Notes: generated from the letters alone by a model not told the origin. DNA of 51,039 nucleotides from Deltaproteobacteria bacterium (GCA_016218805.1 JACRCW010000106.1:1-51039), one strand, 5' to 3'; shown: positions 26,053 to 42,773, numbered from the stretch's first letter. Translations and numbers: made by a program.

Positions 26053-27033
26053 ATGACCACCGTGGGTTCCCCGTTGATGTGGGCCGGGTTCATCGCGCTC
26101 GTCGCCGCGCTGCTCGCCGTGGACCTGGGGCTGTTCAACCGCAAGGACCACGTCTTTGGTGCCAAGGAGGCTCTGCGCTGGACCGGTGTGTGGGTGACGC
26201 TGGCGCTCGCGTTCGGCGCGGGTCTGGTGCACCTATACGGCTGGAAGGTGGGCCTGGAGTTCTACACCGGTTGGGTCATCGAATACTCGCTGTCCGTCGA
26301 CAACCTGTTCGTCTTCATCCTCATCTTCCGCGTGTTCCGCATTCCCCCGGAGCACCAGCACCGCGTGCTGTTCTGGGGCATCGTCGGCGCGCTGCTGCTC
26401 CGCGTGAGCATGATCCTCGCCGGCGCGGTGCTCGTGTCCCGGTTCCACTGGATCCTGTACGTGTTCGGCGCGTTCCTTGTGTACTCCGGTGTGAAGATCC
26501 TGCTGGGCGTGGGCCAGGAGGACTCGGAGGAGGAACACCCGGAGAAGAACCCGCTGGTGCGCGCGCTGGCCCGCATCATCCCAACCACTGCTCAACTGCG
26601 CGGGCGGGAGTTCTTTGTCACGGAGGAGGGGCGGACCCTGGCCACGCCGCTGCTCATCTGCCTGGTGACCGTGGAGGTGTCTGACGTGGTGTTTGCCGTG
26701 GATTCCATCCCGGCCATCTTTGCCATCACCACCGACCCGTTTGTTGTGTTCACGTCCAACATCTTTGCCATCATGGGCCTGCGCAGCCTGTATTTCCTGC
26801 TGGCGCGCTGGGTGAGCCTGTTCCGCTTCCTGGAGACCGGGCTTGGGATTGTGCTCACGTTTGTGGGCGTCAAGATGCTGGTGGACTACTTTGACATCCA
26901 CCTCCACCCGGCCATCAGTCTGTCCGTGGTGGTGGGCGTGCTGGCGCTCAGCGTGCTCCTCAGCGTGGTCATCCGCCCGCGTGAACCCCCCGCGCCCGCG
27001 CCACCCACCGAGCCCCCCCCACCGGCGGCGTGA
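26053..27033 (+). CDS. terC: TerC/Alx family membrane protein
   Basis: 'EYSLSVDNLFVF', 'QHRVLFWGI.GAL', 'DVVFAVDSIPAI', 'SNIFAIMGLRSLYF'. Confidence 0.95.
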   Translation: MTTVGSPLMWAGFIALVAALLAVDLGLFNRKDHVFGAKEALRWTGVWVTLALAFGAGLVHLYGWKVGLEFYTGWVIEYSLSVDNLFVFILIFRVFRIPPEHQHRVLFWGIVGALLLRVSMILAGAVLVSRFHWILYVFGAFLVYSGVKILLGVGQEDSEEEHPEKNPLVRALARIIPTTAQLRGREFFVTEEGRTLATPLLICLVTVEVSDVVFAVDSIPAIFAITTDPFVVFTSNIFAIMGLRSLYFLLARWVSLFRFLETGLGIVLTFVGVKMLVDYFDIHLHPAISLSVVVGVLALSVLLSVVIRPREPPAPAPPTEPPPPAA

Positions 27034-27074
27034 ACGCCCAGCAGCACGTGACGCGGAATGTTTGAAGGCGGCCG

Positions 27075-27814
27075 GGGGGTCACGGGCACGGGTCAGCCCG
27101 GCAGGCCGTACGCCAAGGAGTGGCCGATATCCGGTCACCGGTGTCCGAAAACCGGCAACGCCCGGCCAGGCAGGCGCGGACTACGTGCGATGCGCCCGCT
27201 TGCGTAAGGCTGGCGCGAGGGTTGCTTCGGCGCCCGCCGTGCCGGGCCACGTCAGTACCCGGGCGGGGGCGCGGCCGCGTCTCAAGTACGCCCGGTGGGT
27301 GGGAGCCAGAGCTGCCCCGGCCAGCCGATGAGGAGACCAGTGTTCGTCTAGATCGAACCTTGACGGGTGACGCGTGGGTGAGCCGTGAAACGGAGTCCAT
27401 GCGAGCGTGGTGCGCAGCCGGTTGGTGTCTGTTGGGACCGGTTGGAGTGGATGCAGAGGCCCACCACGTTGACCGGCGCATGACGCAGGCAAAGCCGGCC
27501 CCGGCGAGCGCAGCGGCAGTCCACGGTCAGAATACGCTGCGGACCAACTGGGTCCGTGGAGGGGAACCCCGTTCCCAAACAGCAAGAAGGGATGAAACGA
27601 AAGGACGGATGAAGGAAGGGGAGGCGGCGGGGCCGCGATGAGCAAACGCGAATGGTGACCATGGCGGGGCAGCGGCGCAGCCCCACGCACCCGTCCGCCC
27701 GCCGTCCGCCCAGCTCCACCGACCGAGCACCGACCGGCGCCACGTCCCTGCTGCCCCACGGCGGGTCGCGGCGCCCTACGGCGCCTGACCCGTCCCCACG
27801 GACTCGTGAGCCTT
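27075..27814 (+). ncRNA. Candidate large structured non-coding RNA (~740 nt), family not identified
   Basis: No credible ORF; terminal helices 27080-86/27803-09, 27088-96/27785-93, 27105-10/27777-82; nested helices 27133-39/27654-60, 27160-66/27241-47, 27259-65/27289-95, 27371-77/27397-403, 27666-73/27750-57; C(UUCG)G tetraloop at 27225-30; G-U pairs favour the + strand. Confidence 0.65.
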
Positions 27815-27817
27815 GCC

Positions 27818-28261
27818 TCACTCTTGCATGCGCTCGCGCACGTTCTTGCTGACCTTGATGCGCTGCTCCGGCGTGAGCAGGCTGTGCAGCTCCACGTAGT
27901 AGTCCGCCAGCGTGTGCCCAATGACCCGGGCCGCCTCCACGCGTTCGTCCACCAGGGCGTGCACGCGTGCCGGGTCTGGGCGGTCGCTGTCCCACTGCGT
28001 GAGCAGTTCCGCGCGCGCGGCGCGCCCATCCTCGTGGAAGCGGCGGCCGTCCTTGAGCAGCTCGCCTTTCATCTCCTGCACGCGCGCGCGTTGGGCAGGC
28101 GTGGCCTCCAGGTCGTCCATGACGTCGTTGACGCGCTCGGTGGCCATACGCTCCACGCGTTCGGGGGTCATGTGGCCCAGGCCGCGGTGGTGGCCCCAGG
28201 GGCGGAAGGCAGCCAGCGCCACCACGGCGCCGGCAAGGATCAGGATTCGACGGGTCTTCAT
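27818..28261 (-). CDS. Spy/CpxP (LTXXQ) family periplasmic protein
   Basis: GGAGGA RBS; signal peptide; 'LEATPAQR' and 'LLTPEQR' motifs; helical. Confidence 0.85.
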   Translation of the reverse strand: MKTRRILILAGAVVALAAFRPWGHHRGLGHMTPERVERMATERVNDVMDDLEATPAQRARVQEMKGELLKDGRRFHEDGRAARAELLTQWDSDRPDPARVHALVDERVEAARVIGHTLADYYVELHSLLTPEQRIKVSKNVRERMQE

Positions 28262-28443
28262 GGTGTTCCTCCGGTCCGGCGGGGCATGCGGCGTCCCGGC
28301 GGATGTTCTGTGCGCCGGAATGTGCGCCGCCCGCGTATGGCGCGGTTGAGGTGGCGGTGAAGAAGTGTCAACGCGGCCAGCGTGACGGGTGCACCGCCGC
28401 TGCGCTACATGTCCGCCACGGGATGCGGGACCACGCCACACAC

Positions 28444-40618: not shown

Positions 40619-41605
40619 ATGAGGCCACGCGTGCCCCTGACGCATGACGACGAACCGACCGCGGCCCCACGCCGGCGCGGTCGCCCGGGAGACGCCCCAG
40701 CGCCCACGGAGCGGGTGACCCACGTGGTGATGTCCTACAGCCGCGGGTTTGCGTGGCTGCGGGCGGTGGGCCCGGACGGGTTCACACCGGCGCTGTCCGC
40801 CGTGGAGCGGGTCCAGTGCCGCCCGGGCGTCACGTGCGTGGTGGGGGACCGCGTGGAGGTGGCGGGCGGCAACGTGGCCGGCGTGCTGCCGCGGCGGGGC
40901 ACACTGTCCCGCGCAGTGGGTCCGCAGCAGCAGTTGTTGGCGGCACACGTGGACCGGCTGGTGCTGGTGGTGGCGGTGGGGCGGTCCCTGCGCGAAGGGT
41001 TTGTGATGCGCGGCCTGGTGTCCGCCACGCTGCAGGGCCTGGCGCCGCTGGTGGTGGTGAACAAGATGGACGTGGACGACGGGGACGCCGCCGCGCAGGT
41101 GACGGCGTGGCAGGCCCTGGGCATTCCCGTCCAGCCCACCAGCGTGGTGCGTGGCGACGGGATGGACGCCTTGCGCACGGCGCTGGCGGCGGGGACCTCC
41201 GCGCTGCTGGGGCATTCAGGCGTGGGCAAGAGCACCCTCATCAACGCGCTGCGGCCGGGGGCCAACCGGCGCACCGGCGGGCTGGACTGGCAGGGCAAGG
41301 GCAGGCACGTGACGACCATGGCGGAGGCCATCCCCGACGGGAACAGCCTGCTGGTGGACCTGCCCGGCGTGCGGGAGCTGGGGCTGTGGGGCGCCACCCC
41401 GGAGGACATCCTGGACGCGTTTCCGGACGTGAAGGCCGCCATCACGCGCTGCCACTTCCCGGACTGCAGCCATGACGAGGGCACGGCGGGCTGCGCCGTG
41501 CTGGAGGAACTGGACGCGGGGCGGCTGGACCCCGGACGCGTGGAACTGTGCCTGCGCATGCAGCAGAGCGTGGCGCTGGGCCTGGAGGGTGGGGGCCGCC
41601 TGTGA
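40619..41605 (+). CDS. rsgA: Ribosome small subunit-dependent GTPase A
   Basis: 'VVGDRV', circularly permuted G motifs 'NKMD', 'GHSGVGKSTLIN', 'GRHVTT', 'DLPGVR'; Zn knuckle 'CHFPDCSH..GC'. Confidence 0.95.
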   Translation: MRPRVPLTHDDEPTAAPRRRGRPGDAPAPTERVTHVVMSYSRGFAWLRAVGPDGFTPALSAVERVQCRPGVTCVVGDRVEVAGGNVAGVLPRRGTLSRAVGPQQQLLAAHVDRLVLVVAVGRSLREGFVMRGLVSATLQGLAPLVVVNKMDVDDGDAAAQVTAWQALGIPVQPTSVVRGDGMDALRTALAAGTSALLGHSGVGKSTLINALRPGANRRTGGLDWQGKGRHVTTMAEAIPDGNSLLVDLPGVRELGLWGATPEDILDAFPDVKAAITRCHFPDCSHDEGTAGCAVLEELDAGRLDPGRVELCLRMQQSVALGLEGGGRL

Positions 41606-41609
41606 GCGG

Positions 41610-42773
41610 TCAGGCCTCGGCGCGGCCGGCGGCGTCCAGGGGCGCCAGCGTGTAGACCATCACCGGCTCGTCAAAACCCTTCACGGTGGCGCGGCGGCCC
41701 TCGTGCACCTGGACCATGCCGCGCACCGCGTCAAACGTGGGCTGGTCAATGACAATCTCGCCGCCGCGCGCCAGGCCCTGCAGGCGTGCCGCCAGGTTCA
41801 CCGTGGGGCCAATGACGGTGTGGTCCAGCCGCTCGCCGTAGCCAATGGTTCCCAGGATGGCGTGGCCGGAGGTGACCCCCACGCCCACGCCCACGGGCAG
41901 AAACCCGCGCTCAAACCAGTTGACCTTCAGCTCCTCCAGCCGCTCCAGCAGCTGCTGCGCCGCCATCACCGCACGGCGCGCGCTGTCCGGGTGCATGGCG
42001 GTGGCGCGGAAATAAGCCAGGATGCCGTCACCCATGAACTTGTCCAGCACCCCGCCCTCCGCGGCGACGATGCGGTTCACCTCCGGCAGGTAGTCCCCCA
42101 GCAGGTCCACCACGTCCTCCGGCGCGGAAAACGCGCTGGCGTCCGTGAAGCCGCGGATGTCGCTGAACAGCACGCTGATGGGCTGCCGCGTCGGCGGACT
42201 GCCCACCTCGCCGGTCTGGACCTGCTCCAGCACGCCGGGGGACACGTAGCGCGCCAGGACGTTCACCGTGTCGCGCTCGCGCTCCACCGCGCGCTTGAAC
42301 CGGTCCGCGGCCAGCCGCGCGTCCACCGCCTCGTGGTTTGCCAGCGTCGTGGCGTGCCGCGCCAGCGCCAGCGCGGTCAGGGACCGGACCCGCAGCACCA
42401 GGTCGCCGCGGTCCACCCGGCCGCGGACAATGCCGTCGGGGAGAGCATCCAGGGAGCGCGGCAGCGGATCATTGGACTCCACCAGCAGCAGCACCGGCGC
42501 CGCCGCGTCTTCCGGGTGCGGCCGCAGCACGGCCACCGCGTCCAGGCCCTCCTGCAGCTGGCGGGTGAGCACCAGCAGCACCGGCGGCGGCTCGTCAGCC
42601 GGGCGGTCCTTGAGCCACCCGCAGGCGGCGTTGGCGTCATCCAGTGACGTCAGGTGGTGAAACGGGGCCAGGATGTCATGCACATGCCCGCGCACCAGCG
42701 ACGACCCGCCGACCAGCAGGACGCGGACCGTGATGCGCGGCGTGGGTGAGCGTGACGTGGTGTTCGACGACAA
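41610..42773 (-). CDS. Class III adenylate cyclase with degenerate receiver-like N-terminal domain
   Basis: 'FSDIRGFT', 'DKFMGDG', 'HTVIGPTVNLAARLQ', 'VKG'; start uncertain. Confidence 0.9.
   Translation of the reverse strand: MSSNTTSRSPTPRITVRVLLVGGSSLVRGHVHDILAPFHHLTSLDDANAACGWLKDRPADEPPPVLLVLTRQLQEGLDAVAVLRPHPEDAAAPVLLLVESNDPLPRSLDALPDGIVRGRVDRGDLVLRVRSLTALALARHATTLANHEAVDARLAADRFKRAVERERDTVNVLARYVSPGVLEQVQTGEVGSPPTRQPISVLFSDIRGFTDASAFSAPEDVVDLLGDYLPEVNRIVAAEGGVLDKFMGDGILAYFRATAMHPDSARRAVMAAQQLLERLEELKVNWFERGFLPVGVGVGVTSGHAILGTIGYGERLDHTVIGPTVNLAARLQGLARGGEIVIDQPTFDAVRGMVQVHEGRRATVKGFDEPVMVYTLAPLDAAGRAEA

What the first reader, a model, noticed from the sequence alone, without database searches (positions are those of the whole stretch)
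27075..27814. Candidate ~740-nt giant structured ncRNA between terC and a Spy/CpxP-like gene
Seen: this is the largest gene-free gap in an otherwise tightly packed window, and its two ends pair. TCACGGG(27080-86) pairs with CTCGTGA(27803-09), ACGGGTCAG(27088-96) with CTGACCCGT(27785-93, perfect 9 bp), and GCCGTA(27105-10) with TACGGC(27777-82). Nested inside are GGTCACC(27133-39)/GGTGACC(27654-60) and a multibranch domain closed by GCCCGGC(27160-66)/GCCGGGC(27241-47) that contains a C(UUCG)G hairpin (27219-35). Further helices are CCGGGCG/CGCCCGG(27259-95), GTTCG/CGAAC(27342-58), CGCGTGG/CCATGCG(27371-403, with inner CCG-TGAAA-CGG), CTGTTGGGA(27429-37)/TCCCAAACAG(27573-82) and GGGGCAGC(27666-73)/GCTGCCCC(27750-57). 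Non-canonical pairs are G-U on the + strand, and there are AGUA (loop-E-like) motifs and A-rich joiners. Established: this size and closed architecture match the large bacterial ncRNA classes OLE, ROOL and GOLLD, which are described mainly from other phyla. Inference: a stand-alone large ncRNA, either a new class or a distant ROOL/GOLLD-like relative, in a Myxococcota-like host. I could not see the hallmark motifs of RNase P, tmRNA, SRP or group I/II introns. Caveat: high-GC DNA forms chance helices.
Basis: partly seen in the sequence, partly recalled or inferred. Interest (0 to 1): 0.9.

Follow-up and report, generated by a model that had tools for sequence, protein, structure and literature searches.

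The report
Multi-copy sigma-54-driven non-coding RNA unit
The gene-free gap is not one giant closed RNA but one of at least 13 scattered, nearly identical copies of a 585-base unit that carries its own regulated promoter and most likely makes a non-coding RNA of about 470 bases of unknown job.

Summary
The gap and the complementary segments exist as described, but the reading as one closed ~740-nt RNA fails. The stretch 27120-27704 is one copy of a dispersed repeat. G000 holds 12 further left ends and 11 further right ends, all at contig ends. Folding energy is no better than that of shuffles: z -1.34, 12/150 as good, for the 740 nt; z +0.41 for the conserved core. Rfam gives nothing.

Each unit has four parts: tandem palindromic activator-type sites, an unalignable spacer, a sigma-54 -24/-12 motif kept in 13/13 copies, and a ~467-nt core that becomes near-invariant where transcription should start. 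The core is 96.8% identical between copies; the promoter part is 63.9%. Indels of 1, 2 and 4 nt and empty Pfam scans argue against coding. One hairpin (27371-27403) has two compensatory pairs and plus-strand G-U pairs.

The same site-plus-promoter architecture occurs at only one other place in the genome, in front of a beta-CASP ribonuclease gene.

Best reading: a lineage-specific family of sigma-54-dependent ncRNA genes. No expression data exist and the function is inferred.

The parts
27034..27119 (.). Copy-specific left flank, after the terC stop.
   Evidence: Unrelated among the 13 left ends. The 117 nt upstream of the unit has a mean pairwise identity of 54%, which is background.
27120..27158 (+). 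Two tandem palindromic sites of activator-binding (UAS) type. The family consensus is about TGACCGG-N3-CCGGTCA followed by TGTCCGG-AAn-CCGG(T/A)CA. The first half-site is degenerate in the window copy.
   Evidence: The sites are aligned in 13/13 left ends. An nhmmer profile gives E<1e-3 hits at the 13 units and only two other places: one extra tandem site at C155 and one site at C133. They lie about 80-115 nt upstream of the predicted start.
27159..27207 (+). Variable spacer between the activator-type sites and the promoter.
   Evidence: Unalignable among most copies and about 75-84% identical only within sub-families.
27211..27226 (+). Sigma-54-type -24/-12 promoter TGGCGCGAGGGTTGCT, with GG at 27212-13 and GC at 27224-25.
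   Evidence: GGCRYR-N4-TTGC is kept in 13/13 copies while neighbouring bases vary. The same motif precedes the core in a contig from another study (X5 loose end). rpoN is present, as are about 34 strong activator genes. The consensus TGGCAC-N5-TTGCW is recalled from established knowledge.
27238..27704 (+). Near-invariant non-coding core, the probable ~467-nt RNA. The predicted start at about 27236-27238 is inferred from the -12 element.
   Evidence: The first 122 nt have a mean pairwise identity of 96.8%. Invariance begins at CGTGCCGGG, 12-13 nt after the -12 GC. Indels of 4 nt and 1 nt occur among the copies, and a 2-nt insertion occurs in contigs of other runs. No Pfam family matches any overlapping ORF.
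27371..27403 (+). Hairpin CGCGUGGGU...GAGUCCAUGCG with an inner CCGU-GAA-ACGG. It is the only helix with covariation.
   Evidence: Pair 27375-27399 is U-A in 4 copies and C-G in 1. Pair 27379-27395 is U-G in 3, C-G in 1 and G-C in 1. Pair 27374-27400 is G-U in 1 and G-C in 4. The changes 27375 T>C and 27399 A>G sit together in single contigs of X5, X7 and X8. The G-U pairs fit the plus strand only.
27405..27470 (+). Predicted helix 27405-13/27462-70 that encloses hairpin 27416-24/27435-43.
   Evidence: RNAalifold on 5 copies. The 4-nt indel and most substitutions fall in the hairpin loop. The outer helix never varies, so it says nothing either way. One pair is broken in C159.
27580..27625 (+). 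A-rich variable linker followed by a purine-rich tract with repeated GGA (AAGGGAUGAA / AAGGACGGAUGAA ... GGAAGGGGAGG).
   Evidence: Direct repeat D1. The linker 27580-27598 carries the most substitutions and 1-nt indels of the core.
27666..27704 (+). 3' hairpin GGGGC-loop-GCCCC followed by a C-rich, G-poor tail. This is the end of the conserved sequence.
   Evidence: Variation lies in the loop, and one copy shows G-C changed to G-U. No intrinsic terminator was found. A Rho-dependent end is inference only.
27705..27817 (.). Copy-specific right flank.
   Evidence: Unrelated among the 12 right ends.

Best explanation
Window 27120-27704 is one member of a family of at least 13 self-contained transcription units scattered through this genome. 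Each unit has two palindromic binding sites for an enhancer-binding protein and a free-evolving spacer. These are followed by a sigma-54 -24/-12 promoter and a ~467-nt sequence that is almost identical in all copies and does not code for protein.

The most likely working is as follows. A signal-activated bEBP binds the upstream sites and opens the sigma-54 promoters of all copies at once. This gives a large burst of one plus-strand ncRNA that starts near 27237 and ends near 27704.

The same site-plus-promoter architecture also drives a TTHA0252-like beta-CASP ribonuclease gene. RNA and RNase would therefore belong to one regulon. The RNA is probably a substrate to be processed by that RNase, a partner of it or a decoy for it, or else a trans-acting regulator or sponge through its purine-rich GGA tract.

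What is shown: the repeat family, its borders, the conserved motifs, the lack of coding signal and one covarying hairpin. What is inferred: transcription, the transcript ends, the link to the RNase and any function.
For: Copies:
- 24 further matches at 83-100% identity (the 100% one a 28-nt piece) occur in G000: 23 at contig ends and one weak partial piece beside the C41 end.
- Left-end and right-end contigs overlap across 27287-27591, so other copies are contiguous like this one.

Borders and constraint:
- The upstream flank is 54% identical between copies, which is background.
- The UAS-to-promoter part is 63.9% identical (range 55-84%).
- The core is 96.8% identical (range 91-100%).
- In the closest pairs the promoter part has diverged 16-20% and the core 1-2%.

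Promoter:
- GGCRYR-N4-TTGC is present in 13/13 units.
- Invariance starts 12-13 nt after the -12 GC.
- The upstream palindromes are specific to the units.
- A composite scan for the promoter motif with at least 2 half-sites upstream gave 12 hits: 11 units and the beta-CASP gene.
- rpoN is present, as are about 34 strong bEBP genes.

Regulon partner:
- At C133 the sites are followed by CTGGCGCGCCGGTTGCT, a Shine-Dalgarno sequence and the ATG of a Beta-Casp + RMMBL + Lactamase_B protein.
- The closest solved structure is ribonuclease TTHA0252, E 6e-64.

Non-coding:
- Indels of 1 and 4 nt occur among the copies, and contigs of other runs add a 2-nt insertion.
- There are no Pfam hits.

Strand and structure:
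- Two compensatory pairs and G-U pairs occur in hairpin 27371-27403.
- Substitutions cluster in predicted loops and linkers.

Other samples:
- Contigs from 4 runs of 4 other studies lie on the core at about 90-95% identity.
- One of them carries the promoter motif just upstream.

Precedent: sigma-54 promoters with upstream palindromic activator sites drive the sRNA genes glmY and glmZ (PMC3045617, abstract and passages seen).
Against: - There is no expression evidence of any kind.
- The core folds no better than shuffles: z +0.41.
- On the whole core, covariation does not exceed the shuffled controls. Two pairs changed on both sides against 0.8 expected, and 67/500 shuffles were as high.
- Both compensatory pairs come from one sub-lineage, the C159-like copies.
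- The strict sigma-54 pattern is not enriched genome-wide: 23 hits against 23 in the reversed-sequence null. The canonical TGGCAC-N5-TTGCW occurs only twice. The promoter call therefore rests on conservation and position, not on genome statistics.
- Near-identity of the core could come from gene conversion or recent spread rather than selection.
- The discrete left border at the first binding site looks like the end of a mobile element.
- The family was found in no other genome searched, so long-term conservation cannot be shown.
- The closest beta-CASP relative (G027, 51% identity) has no such sites upstream.
Confidence: 0.55

Rival explanations
1. It is a non-autonomous mobile element or selfish dispersed repeat. 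The near-identity of the core then reflects recent spread or gene conversion, and the RNA, if any, has no cellular job.
For: - At least 13 dispersed copies break the assembly.
- The left border is sharp: the closest pairs are 84% identical inside the unit and 55% just outside it.
- The family is lineage-restricted. It was found in 0 of 60, 0 of 100 and 0 of 400 other genomes, including the one genome of the same family.
- A 10-nt direct repeat, CGCCCGCCGT, lies at 27231-40 and 27696-705.
Against: - The two ends share no terminal inverted repeats.
- No transposase or integrase lies beside any of the 24 ends examined.
- The genome gives no IS110 and no TnpB match, and only 2 weak Y1_Tnp matches that are unlinked to the units.
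- There is no match in plasmids, phages or viral contigs.
- A selfish repeat does not explain why an internal spacer diverges about 10 times faster than the core, nor why only the sigma-54 and palindrome motifs are kept in the promoter part.
- The left copy of the 10-nt repeat lies inside the unit, and repeats of this size are common here: 6 families in 631 nt.
Confidence: 0.25
2. It is a portable sigma-54 promoter with a long leader that acts in cis on whatever lies downstream. It would drive co-directional genes or make antisense RNA against convergent ones.
For: In about half of the 12 copies, a co-directional ORF starts 90-190 nt after the unit. Many neighbours are envelope or export genes: TerC, a SurA-like protein, SppA, PBP1, SLT and YajC-SecDF.
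Against: In the window and in other copies (C78, C11) the next gene is convergent. The neighbours share no common family. A ~467-nt leader kept at 97% identity is not needed for promoter delivery.
Confidence: 0.08
3. One reading: one stand-alone ~740-nt closed, multi-domain structured RNA, either a new class or a distant ROOL/GOLLD/OLE relative.
For: The terminal complementary segments exist and appear in the MFE fold. The tool's 20-shuffle z was -2.06.
Against: - The closing helices lie in flanks that differ in every other copy.
- The 150-shuffle z is -1.34, with 12/150 as good.
- The core z is +0.41.
- No Rfam family reaches gathering score, and at E<=10 there is only noise.
- The 5' 160 nt of the proposed RNA lie upstream of the conserved promoter.
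Confidence: 0.03
4. The core encodes a small protein, for example the mini-ORF ATG 27638-TGA 27658 (MSKREW) behind GGAGG, or another short frame.
For: A GGAGG lies 12 nt before a conserved ATG. One copy has a synonymous AGC>AGT change.
Against: Six codons only, and another copy changes CGC to TTC. All longer ORFs cross frame-breaking indels or run into unrelated flanks. There are no Pfam hits.
Confidence: 0.04

Closest known systems
Sigma-54-dependent sRNA genes with upstream activator-binding palindromes: GlmY/GlmZ with GlrR (PMC3045617, abstract and passages read); CrcZ with CbrB (PMC6296734, search listing only); Qrr with LuxO (recalled)
   Same: A non-coding gene sits behind a -24/-12 promoter with palindromic activator sites about 80-120 nt upstream. 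Paralogous copies are controlled by one activator. The site shape TGWC-N9-GWCA resembles GlrR's TGTC-N10-GACA.
   Different: There is no sequence or Rfam-model similarity. This RNA is about 467 nt, against roughly 100-400 nt. It has at least 13 copies rather than 1-5. The copies have discrete borders like a dispersed repeat. The activator is unidentified and expression is unproven.
Large bacterial ncRNAs ROOL, GOLLD and OLE
   Same: A long non-coding stretch that no other annotation explains.
   Different: No covariance-model match. No excess folding stability. The element is multi-copy and near-identical, the conserved part is about 467 nt, and it is lineage-restricted.
MITEs and other non-autonomous dispersed repeats
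   Same: Many dispersed intergenic copies with sharp ends that break short-read assemblies. No coding capacity.
   Different: No terminal inverted repeats, no clear target-site duplication and no partner transposase found. It carries an internal regulated promoter and an internal hypervariable spacer.
TTHA0252-type beta-CASP ribonuclease (PDB 2dkf and others), the co-regulated gene
   Same: The C133 protein aligns over 20-441 at E 6e-64 and has Beta-Casp, RMMBL and Lactamase_B domains.
   Different: It is a second paralogue in this genome; the other, at C26, is 42% identical. It sits behind the unit-type promoter and next to a defence island. It is not a Cas14: 289.8 bits against a cut-off of 800.

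Membership tests
ROOL / GOLLD / OLE / raiA / HEARO and every other Rfam 15 family | Match to the family covariance model at gathering score | tested here: not met
   There are 0 matches in the whole window at gathering score. At E<=10 on 26900-28000 there are 5 matches, all far below their cut-offs; the best is sR36 at 20.6 bits against 55. That these named families are in Rfam 15 is recalled.
Large structured ncRNA (generic) | Folding energy clearly below dinucleotide shuffles | tested here: not met
   z is -1.34 (12/150 as good) for 27075-27814 and -1.30 (17/150) for 27120-27704. z is +0.41 for the core.
Large structured ncRNA (generic) | Covariation supporting the proposed helices | tested here: inconclusive
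   One hairpin has 2 compensatory pairs. The whole-structure measures are not above the shuffled controls. The copies are 91-100% identical, so the test has little power.
Sigma-54-dependent sRNA gene | -24 GG / -12 GC promoter at the right spacing | tested here: met
   TGGCGCG-N4-TTGCT lies at 27211-27226. GGCRYR-N4-TTGC is present in 13/13 copies. This is a motif-level test only.
Sigma-54-dependent sRNA gene | Upstream activator-binding sites | tested here: met
   Tandem palindromes are present in 13/13 units and are specific to them and to one gene promoter. Protein binding was not tested.
Sigma-54-dependent sRNA gene | Sigma-54 and bEBPs encoded in the genome | tested here: met
   rpoN is at C159:28827-29303. 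PF00158 gives 40 matches, about 34 of them strong.
Sigma-54-dependent sRNA gene | A discrete transcript that depends on sigma-54 and the activator | not testable with these tools
MITE / IS-derived non-autonomous element | Terminal inverted repeats | tested here: not met
   No inverted repeat joins the two ends. I1 is a palindrome inside the left end.
MITE / IS-derived non-autonomous element | Target-site duplication | tested here: inconclusive
   A 10-nt direct repeat lies at 27231-40 and 27696-705 in the window copy. Its left copy is inside the unit, and left and right ends of the other copies cannot be paired because the contigs break.
MITE / IS-derived non-autonomous element | Autonomous partner (transposase) in the genome | tested here: not met
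   No IS110 or TnpB match, 2 weak unlinked Y1_Tnp matches, and none next to any copy. The genome is 92% complete, so absence is not proven.
Protein-coding gene | A conserved open frame or family match | tested here: not met
   Indels of 1, 2 and 4 nt occur. None of the 7 ORFs over the region has a Pfam match better than E 0.11.
tRNA / tmRNA | ARAGORN detection | tested here: not met
   0 genes in 26500-28300.

The most novel reading that the evidence does not exclude
A previously undescribed, lineage-specific family of ~470-nt ncRNA genes that has multiplied as discrete, SINE-like units to at least 13 copies. Each unit keeps its own bEBP sites and sigma-54 promoter. The units form one regulon with a dedicated beta-CASP ribonuclease. 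This would be an inducible, very high-dosage RNA output whose product is processed by, guides or titrates that RNase. It would be a new kind of RNA-based stress or defence module in a bacterium rich in sigma-54 activators.
Probability: 0.35. Interest if true: 0.75.

Novelty: new variant of a known kind. Interest (0 to 1): 0.55.

Why it matters
If transcribed as predicted, this would be an unusually large and unusually multiplied sigma-54-dependent RNA. Thirteen promoters would answer to one activator and share a regulon with an RNA-cleaving enzyme. That would give a concrete system for two questions: how bacteria use gene dosage of regulatory RNAs, and what TTHA0252-type beta-CASP RNases do. 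It also shows a way for RNA genes to spread as discrete units without recognisable transposon ends. On the practical side, this repeat accounts for 23 of the 340 contig ends of this assembly. For the scan, it is a caution: long-range helices in 70% G+C intergenic DNA are not evidence of a closed RNA fold.

Tried and rejected
- Rfam at gathering score on the window and at E<=10 on the region gave nothing usable. Rfam on the C133 locus gave 0 matches.
- CsrA-sponge idea for the GGA-rich tract: no CsrA (PF02599) was found in G000, which is 92% complete. The idea was dropped as a specific claim.
- The exact 20-mer scans of genome contigs (9 loci) and metagenome contigs (16 loci) gave only chance matches of 20-32 nt in unrelated taxa. 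These scans therefore say little about distribution.
- blastn against plasmids and phages gave no match. Two patterns in viral contigs gave 0 matches.
- Homologue searches in other genomes found only G000. blastn found no real homologue in 60 relatives, only 3 chance-level matches of 41-66 nt. Covariance model R1 (111 positions) matched 0 of 100 relatives. blastn matched 0 of 400 genomes of the phylum, with only 2 candidates scored per genome.
- Sequencing runs: no RNA holder was listed. The four runs laid were contigs only. Their lack of cover over 27087-27209 and over most flanks is not evidence.
- RNAalifold on the 23-row alignment of partial copies predicted 0 pairs because of the gaps.
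- Phylogenetic footprint of the activator sites: the closest beta-CASP relative (G027) has a different upstream region without them.
- Target-site-duplication reading of the repeat CGCCCGCCGT: junction variants on the left and right ends look partly alike, but their counts do not match (for example CCACC occurs once on the left and three times on the right). The ends cannot be paired.
- Host phylum: not established here. The protein atlas gave only weak hits labelled Gemmatimonadota (scores up to 0.85).

Full report
**1. The observation.** The region between the terC-family gene (26053-27033, PF03741, E 1.9e-53) and the next ORFs is gene-free. By a crude GC3-based ORF pick it is the largest such gap in the window.

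The thermodynamic signal is weak. The tool's 20 shuffles gave z -2.06. With 150 dinucleotide shuffles, z is -1.34 and 12/150 shuffles fold as well. The minus strand gives z +0.04. Rfam 15 gives nothing at gathering score in the whole window and only noise at E<=10. There is no sigma-70 promoter, no intrinsic terminator, and no tRNA or tmRNA.

**2. The stretch is a dispersed repeat.** A search of the window's own genome found 24 further matches at 83-100% identity (the 100% one a 28-nt piece): 23 at contig ends and one weak partial piece beside the C41 end.
- There are 12 left ends and 11 right ends, so the genome holds at least 13 copies.
- Left-end and right-end contigs overlap across 27287-27591. 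At least some other copies are therefore contiguous like the window's.
- The window copy is the only one assembled whole.

Alignment of all ends with their flanks sets the unit at 27120-27704. Sequence outside these borders is unrelated between copies.

**3. Anatomy of the unit.** From left to right:
- **Activator-type sites.** Two palindromic sites run from 27120 to about 27158. The family consensus is roughly TGACCGG-N3-CCGGTCA followed by TGTCCGG-AAn-CCGG(T/A)CA. An nhmmer profile of this motif gives E<1e-3 hits at the 13 units. The only others are a second tandem site at C155 and one site at C133.
- **Spacer.** About 50 nt cannot be aligned among most copies.
- **Promoter.** TGGCGCGAGGGTTGCT lies at 27211-27226. 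GGCRYR-N4-TTGC is kept in 13/13 copies while neighbouring bases vary. This fits the sigma-54 consensus TGGCAC-N5-TTGCW (recalled) with one mismatch and the right spacing.
- **Core.** From 27238 (CGTGCCGGG...) to about 27704 the sequence is almost invariant.

The jump to invariance lies 12-13 nt after the -12 GC, which is where a sigma-54 transcript should begin.

Pairwise identities (78 pairs):

| Segment | Mean identity | Range |
|---|---|---|
| 117 nt upstream of the unit | 54% | background |
| Sites-to-promoter part | 63.9% | 55-84% |
| First 122 nt of the core | 96.8% | 91-100% |

In the closest pairs, the promoter part has diverged 16-20% and the core 1-2%.

The genome encodes sigma-54 and about 34 strong enhancer-binding-protein genes.

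A caution applies. Genome-wide, the strict promoter pattern is no more frequent than in reversed sequence: 23 hits against 23, with 8 of the real hits in units. The canonical TGGCAC form occurs only twice. The promoter call therefore rests on conservation and position.

**4. An independent use of the same architecture.** The one orphan site, on the minus strand of C133, is followed about 75 nt later by CTGGCGCGCCGGTTGCT. After that come GAAGAGGA and the ATG of a gene.
- The protein has Beta-Casp, RMMBL and metallo-beta-lactamase domains.
- It is most like ribonuclease TTHA0252, E 6e-64.
- It falls far below the Cas14 cut-off: 289.8 bits against 800.

A composite scan looked for the promoter motif with at least two half-sites 30-150 nt upstream. 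It gave 12 hits in 6.4 Mb: 11 units and this gene. The other two units were missed by my half-site expression. The sites and promoter thus behave as a regulatory module that also serves a protein gene. This argues that they are not transposon ends, and it places the RNA units and an RNase in one presumptive regulon.

The RNase gene is followed by a 258-aa protein without any family match and then by a defence island. The island holds a type I R-M system with PDC-M41A/B and an AriA/GajA-like ATPase.

**5. Coding or not.**
- The copies differ by a 4-nt indel (27426-29) and by 1-nt indels.
- Contigs from other runs add a 2-nt insertion after 27388.
- Every ORF of 60 aa or more over the core crosses such an indel or runs into unrelated flanks.
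- None of them has a Pfam match.
- A six-codon mini-ORF behind GGAGG (27638-27658) is conserved but too short to judge.

**6. Structure.** The core folds no better than shuffles: z +0.41 on the plus strand and +0.95 on the minus strand.

On five copies covering 27362-27476, RNAalifold predicts 37 pairs. Two of them have compensatory changes:
- 27375-27399: U-A in 4 copies and C-G in 1.
- 27379-27395: U-G, C-G and G-C.

There is also a G-U to G-C change at 27374-27400. All three pairs lie in hairpin 27371-27403. The G-U pairs fit the plus strand only. The linked changes 27375 T>C and 27399 A>G recur in single contigs of three other studies, but they are probably one inherited variant.

Helix 27429-37/27573-82 pairs in only 69%. 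The window MFE structure reaches 94.0% against 93.7% (1/500), with 2 compensatory pairs (67/500).

Substitutions and indels cluster in predicted loops and in the A-rich linker 27580-27598. The test has little power at 91-100% identity. Local structure is supported in one hairpin, and a global fold is not shown.

**7. Distribution.**
- blastn found no real homologue in 60 relatives, only 3 chance-level matches of 41-66 nt.
- Covariance model R1 matched 0 of 100 relatives.
- blastn matched 0 of 400 genomes of the phylum.
- Nothing was found in plasmids, phages or viral contigs.
- Contigs of four runs from four other studies (aquatic, sediment, soil, groundwater) lie on the core at about 90-95% identity. 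Examples are X5 27237-27480 and X8 27221-27449. One X5 contig continues upstream with TGCTGGCGCGGGTGTTGCT..., which is the promoter motif again.

A 13-copy repeat is the part of a rare relative's genome most likely to be assembled. These contigs show that the family exists elsewhere, not that it was transferred.

**8. Neighbours.** The 24 ends lie between ordinary genes: MnmE, SLT, a SurA-like protein, SppA, PBP1, TGT, L25/Pth, YajC-SecDF, PdxA, Cmk, a POT transporter and others. No transposase or integrase is among them. About half of the downstream genes are co-directional and the rest, including the window's, are convergent. This argues against a pure leader role.

**9. Verdict.** It is not a unique 740-nt closed RNA related to ROOL, GOLLD or OLE.

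It is one copy of a family of at least 13 units. Each unit has activator-type sites, a sigma-54 promoter and a ~467-nt non-coding core under strong constraint or homogenisation. The units share their regulatory module with a beta-CASP RNase gene.

I take a sigma-54/bEBP-induced ncRNA gene family as the best reading (0.55). The main rival is a selfish dispersed repeat (0.25). The discrete borders mean the two readings are not exclusive. Transcription, transcript ends and function are all inferred.

Noticed in passing
G000 C133:70578-71909 (-), locus L069:10579-11910: A TTHA0252-like beta-CASP ribonuclease gene sits behind the same palindromic sites and sigma-54 motif as the RNA units. It is a second paralogue: the other, at C26:71664-72986, is 42% identical. 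The closest relative is in a distant family (G027, 51% identity).
   Followed up: partly
G000 C133:60002-67388, locus L069:3-7389: A defence island lies next to the RNase gene. It holds a type I R-M methylase and specificity subunit interrupted by PDC-M41A/B (DUF5131), and an AriA/GajA-like AAA ATPase.
   Followed up: partly
G000 C133:69712-70485 (-), protein P0001: A 258-aa ORF with high GC3 lies 93 nt downstream of the RNase gene. It has no Pfam, NCBIfam or PADLOC match and may be in the same operon.
   Followed up: partly
G000 C41:12721-12790 (-), locus L021:3222-3291: A second, 78%-identical partial copy of the 3' part of the core (window 27618-27688) lies about 60 nt downstream of a unit's right end.
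   Followed up: no
G000 C155:241-277 (-): An extra tandem copy of the palindromic activator-type site lies just upstream of the regular one in this unit.
   Followed up: no
window 27818-28262 (-): The ORF called 'Spy/CpxP-like' has a signal-peptide-like start and an LTPEQR motif. It has no Pfam or NCBIfam match even at E<=1. An overlapping plus-strand ORF (27912-28349) has similar GC3, so the gene call itself is uncertain.
   Followed up: partly
window 41603-42267: This is the second-largest ORF-free gap of the window (665 nt) by the crude GC3-based ORF pick.
   Followed up: no
flanks of the 24 unit ends (loci L012-L035 and the window): Many neighbours are cell-envelope or protein-export genes: TerC, a SurA-like PPIase, SppA, PBP1, SLT, YajC-SecDF, a PDZ protease, an M50B peptidase and a MacB-like protein. 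No enrichment test was done.
   Followed up: no
G000 C54:78377-78601 and C163:59716-60024: Two weak Y1_Tnp (IS200/RAYT-type) domain matches. Neither is near a unit or near the palindromic motif.
   Followed up: no
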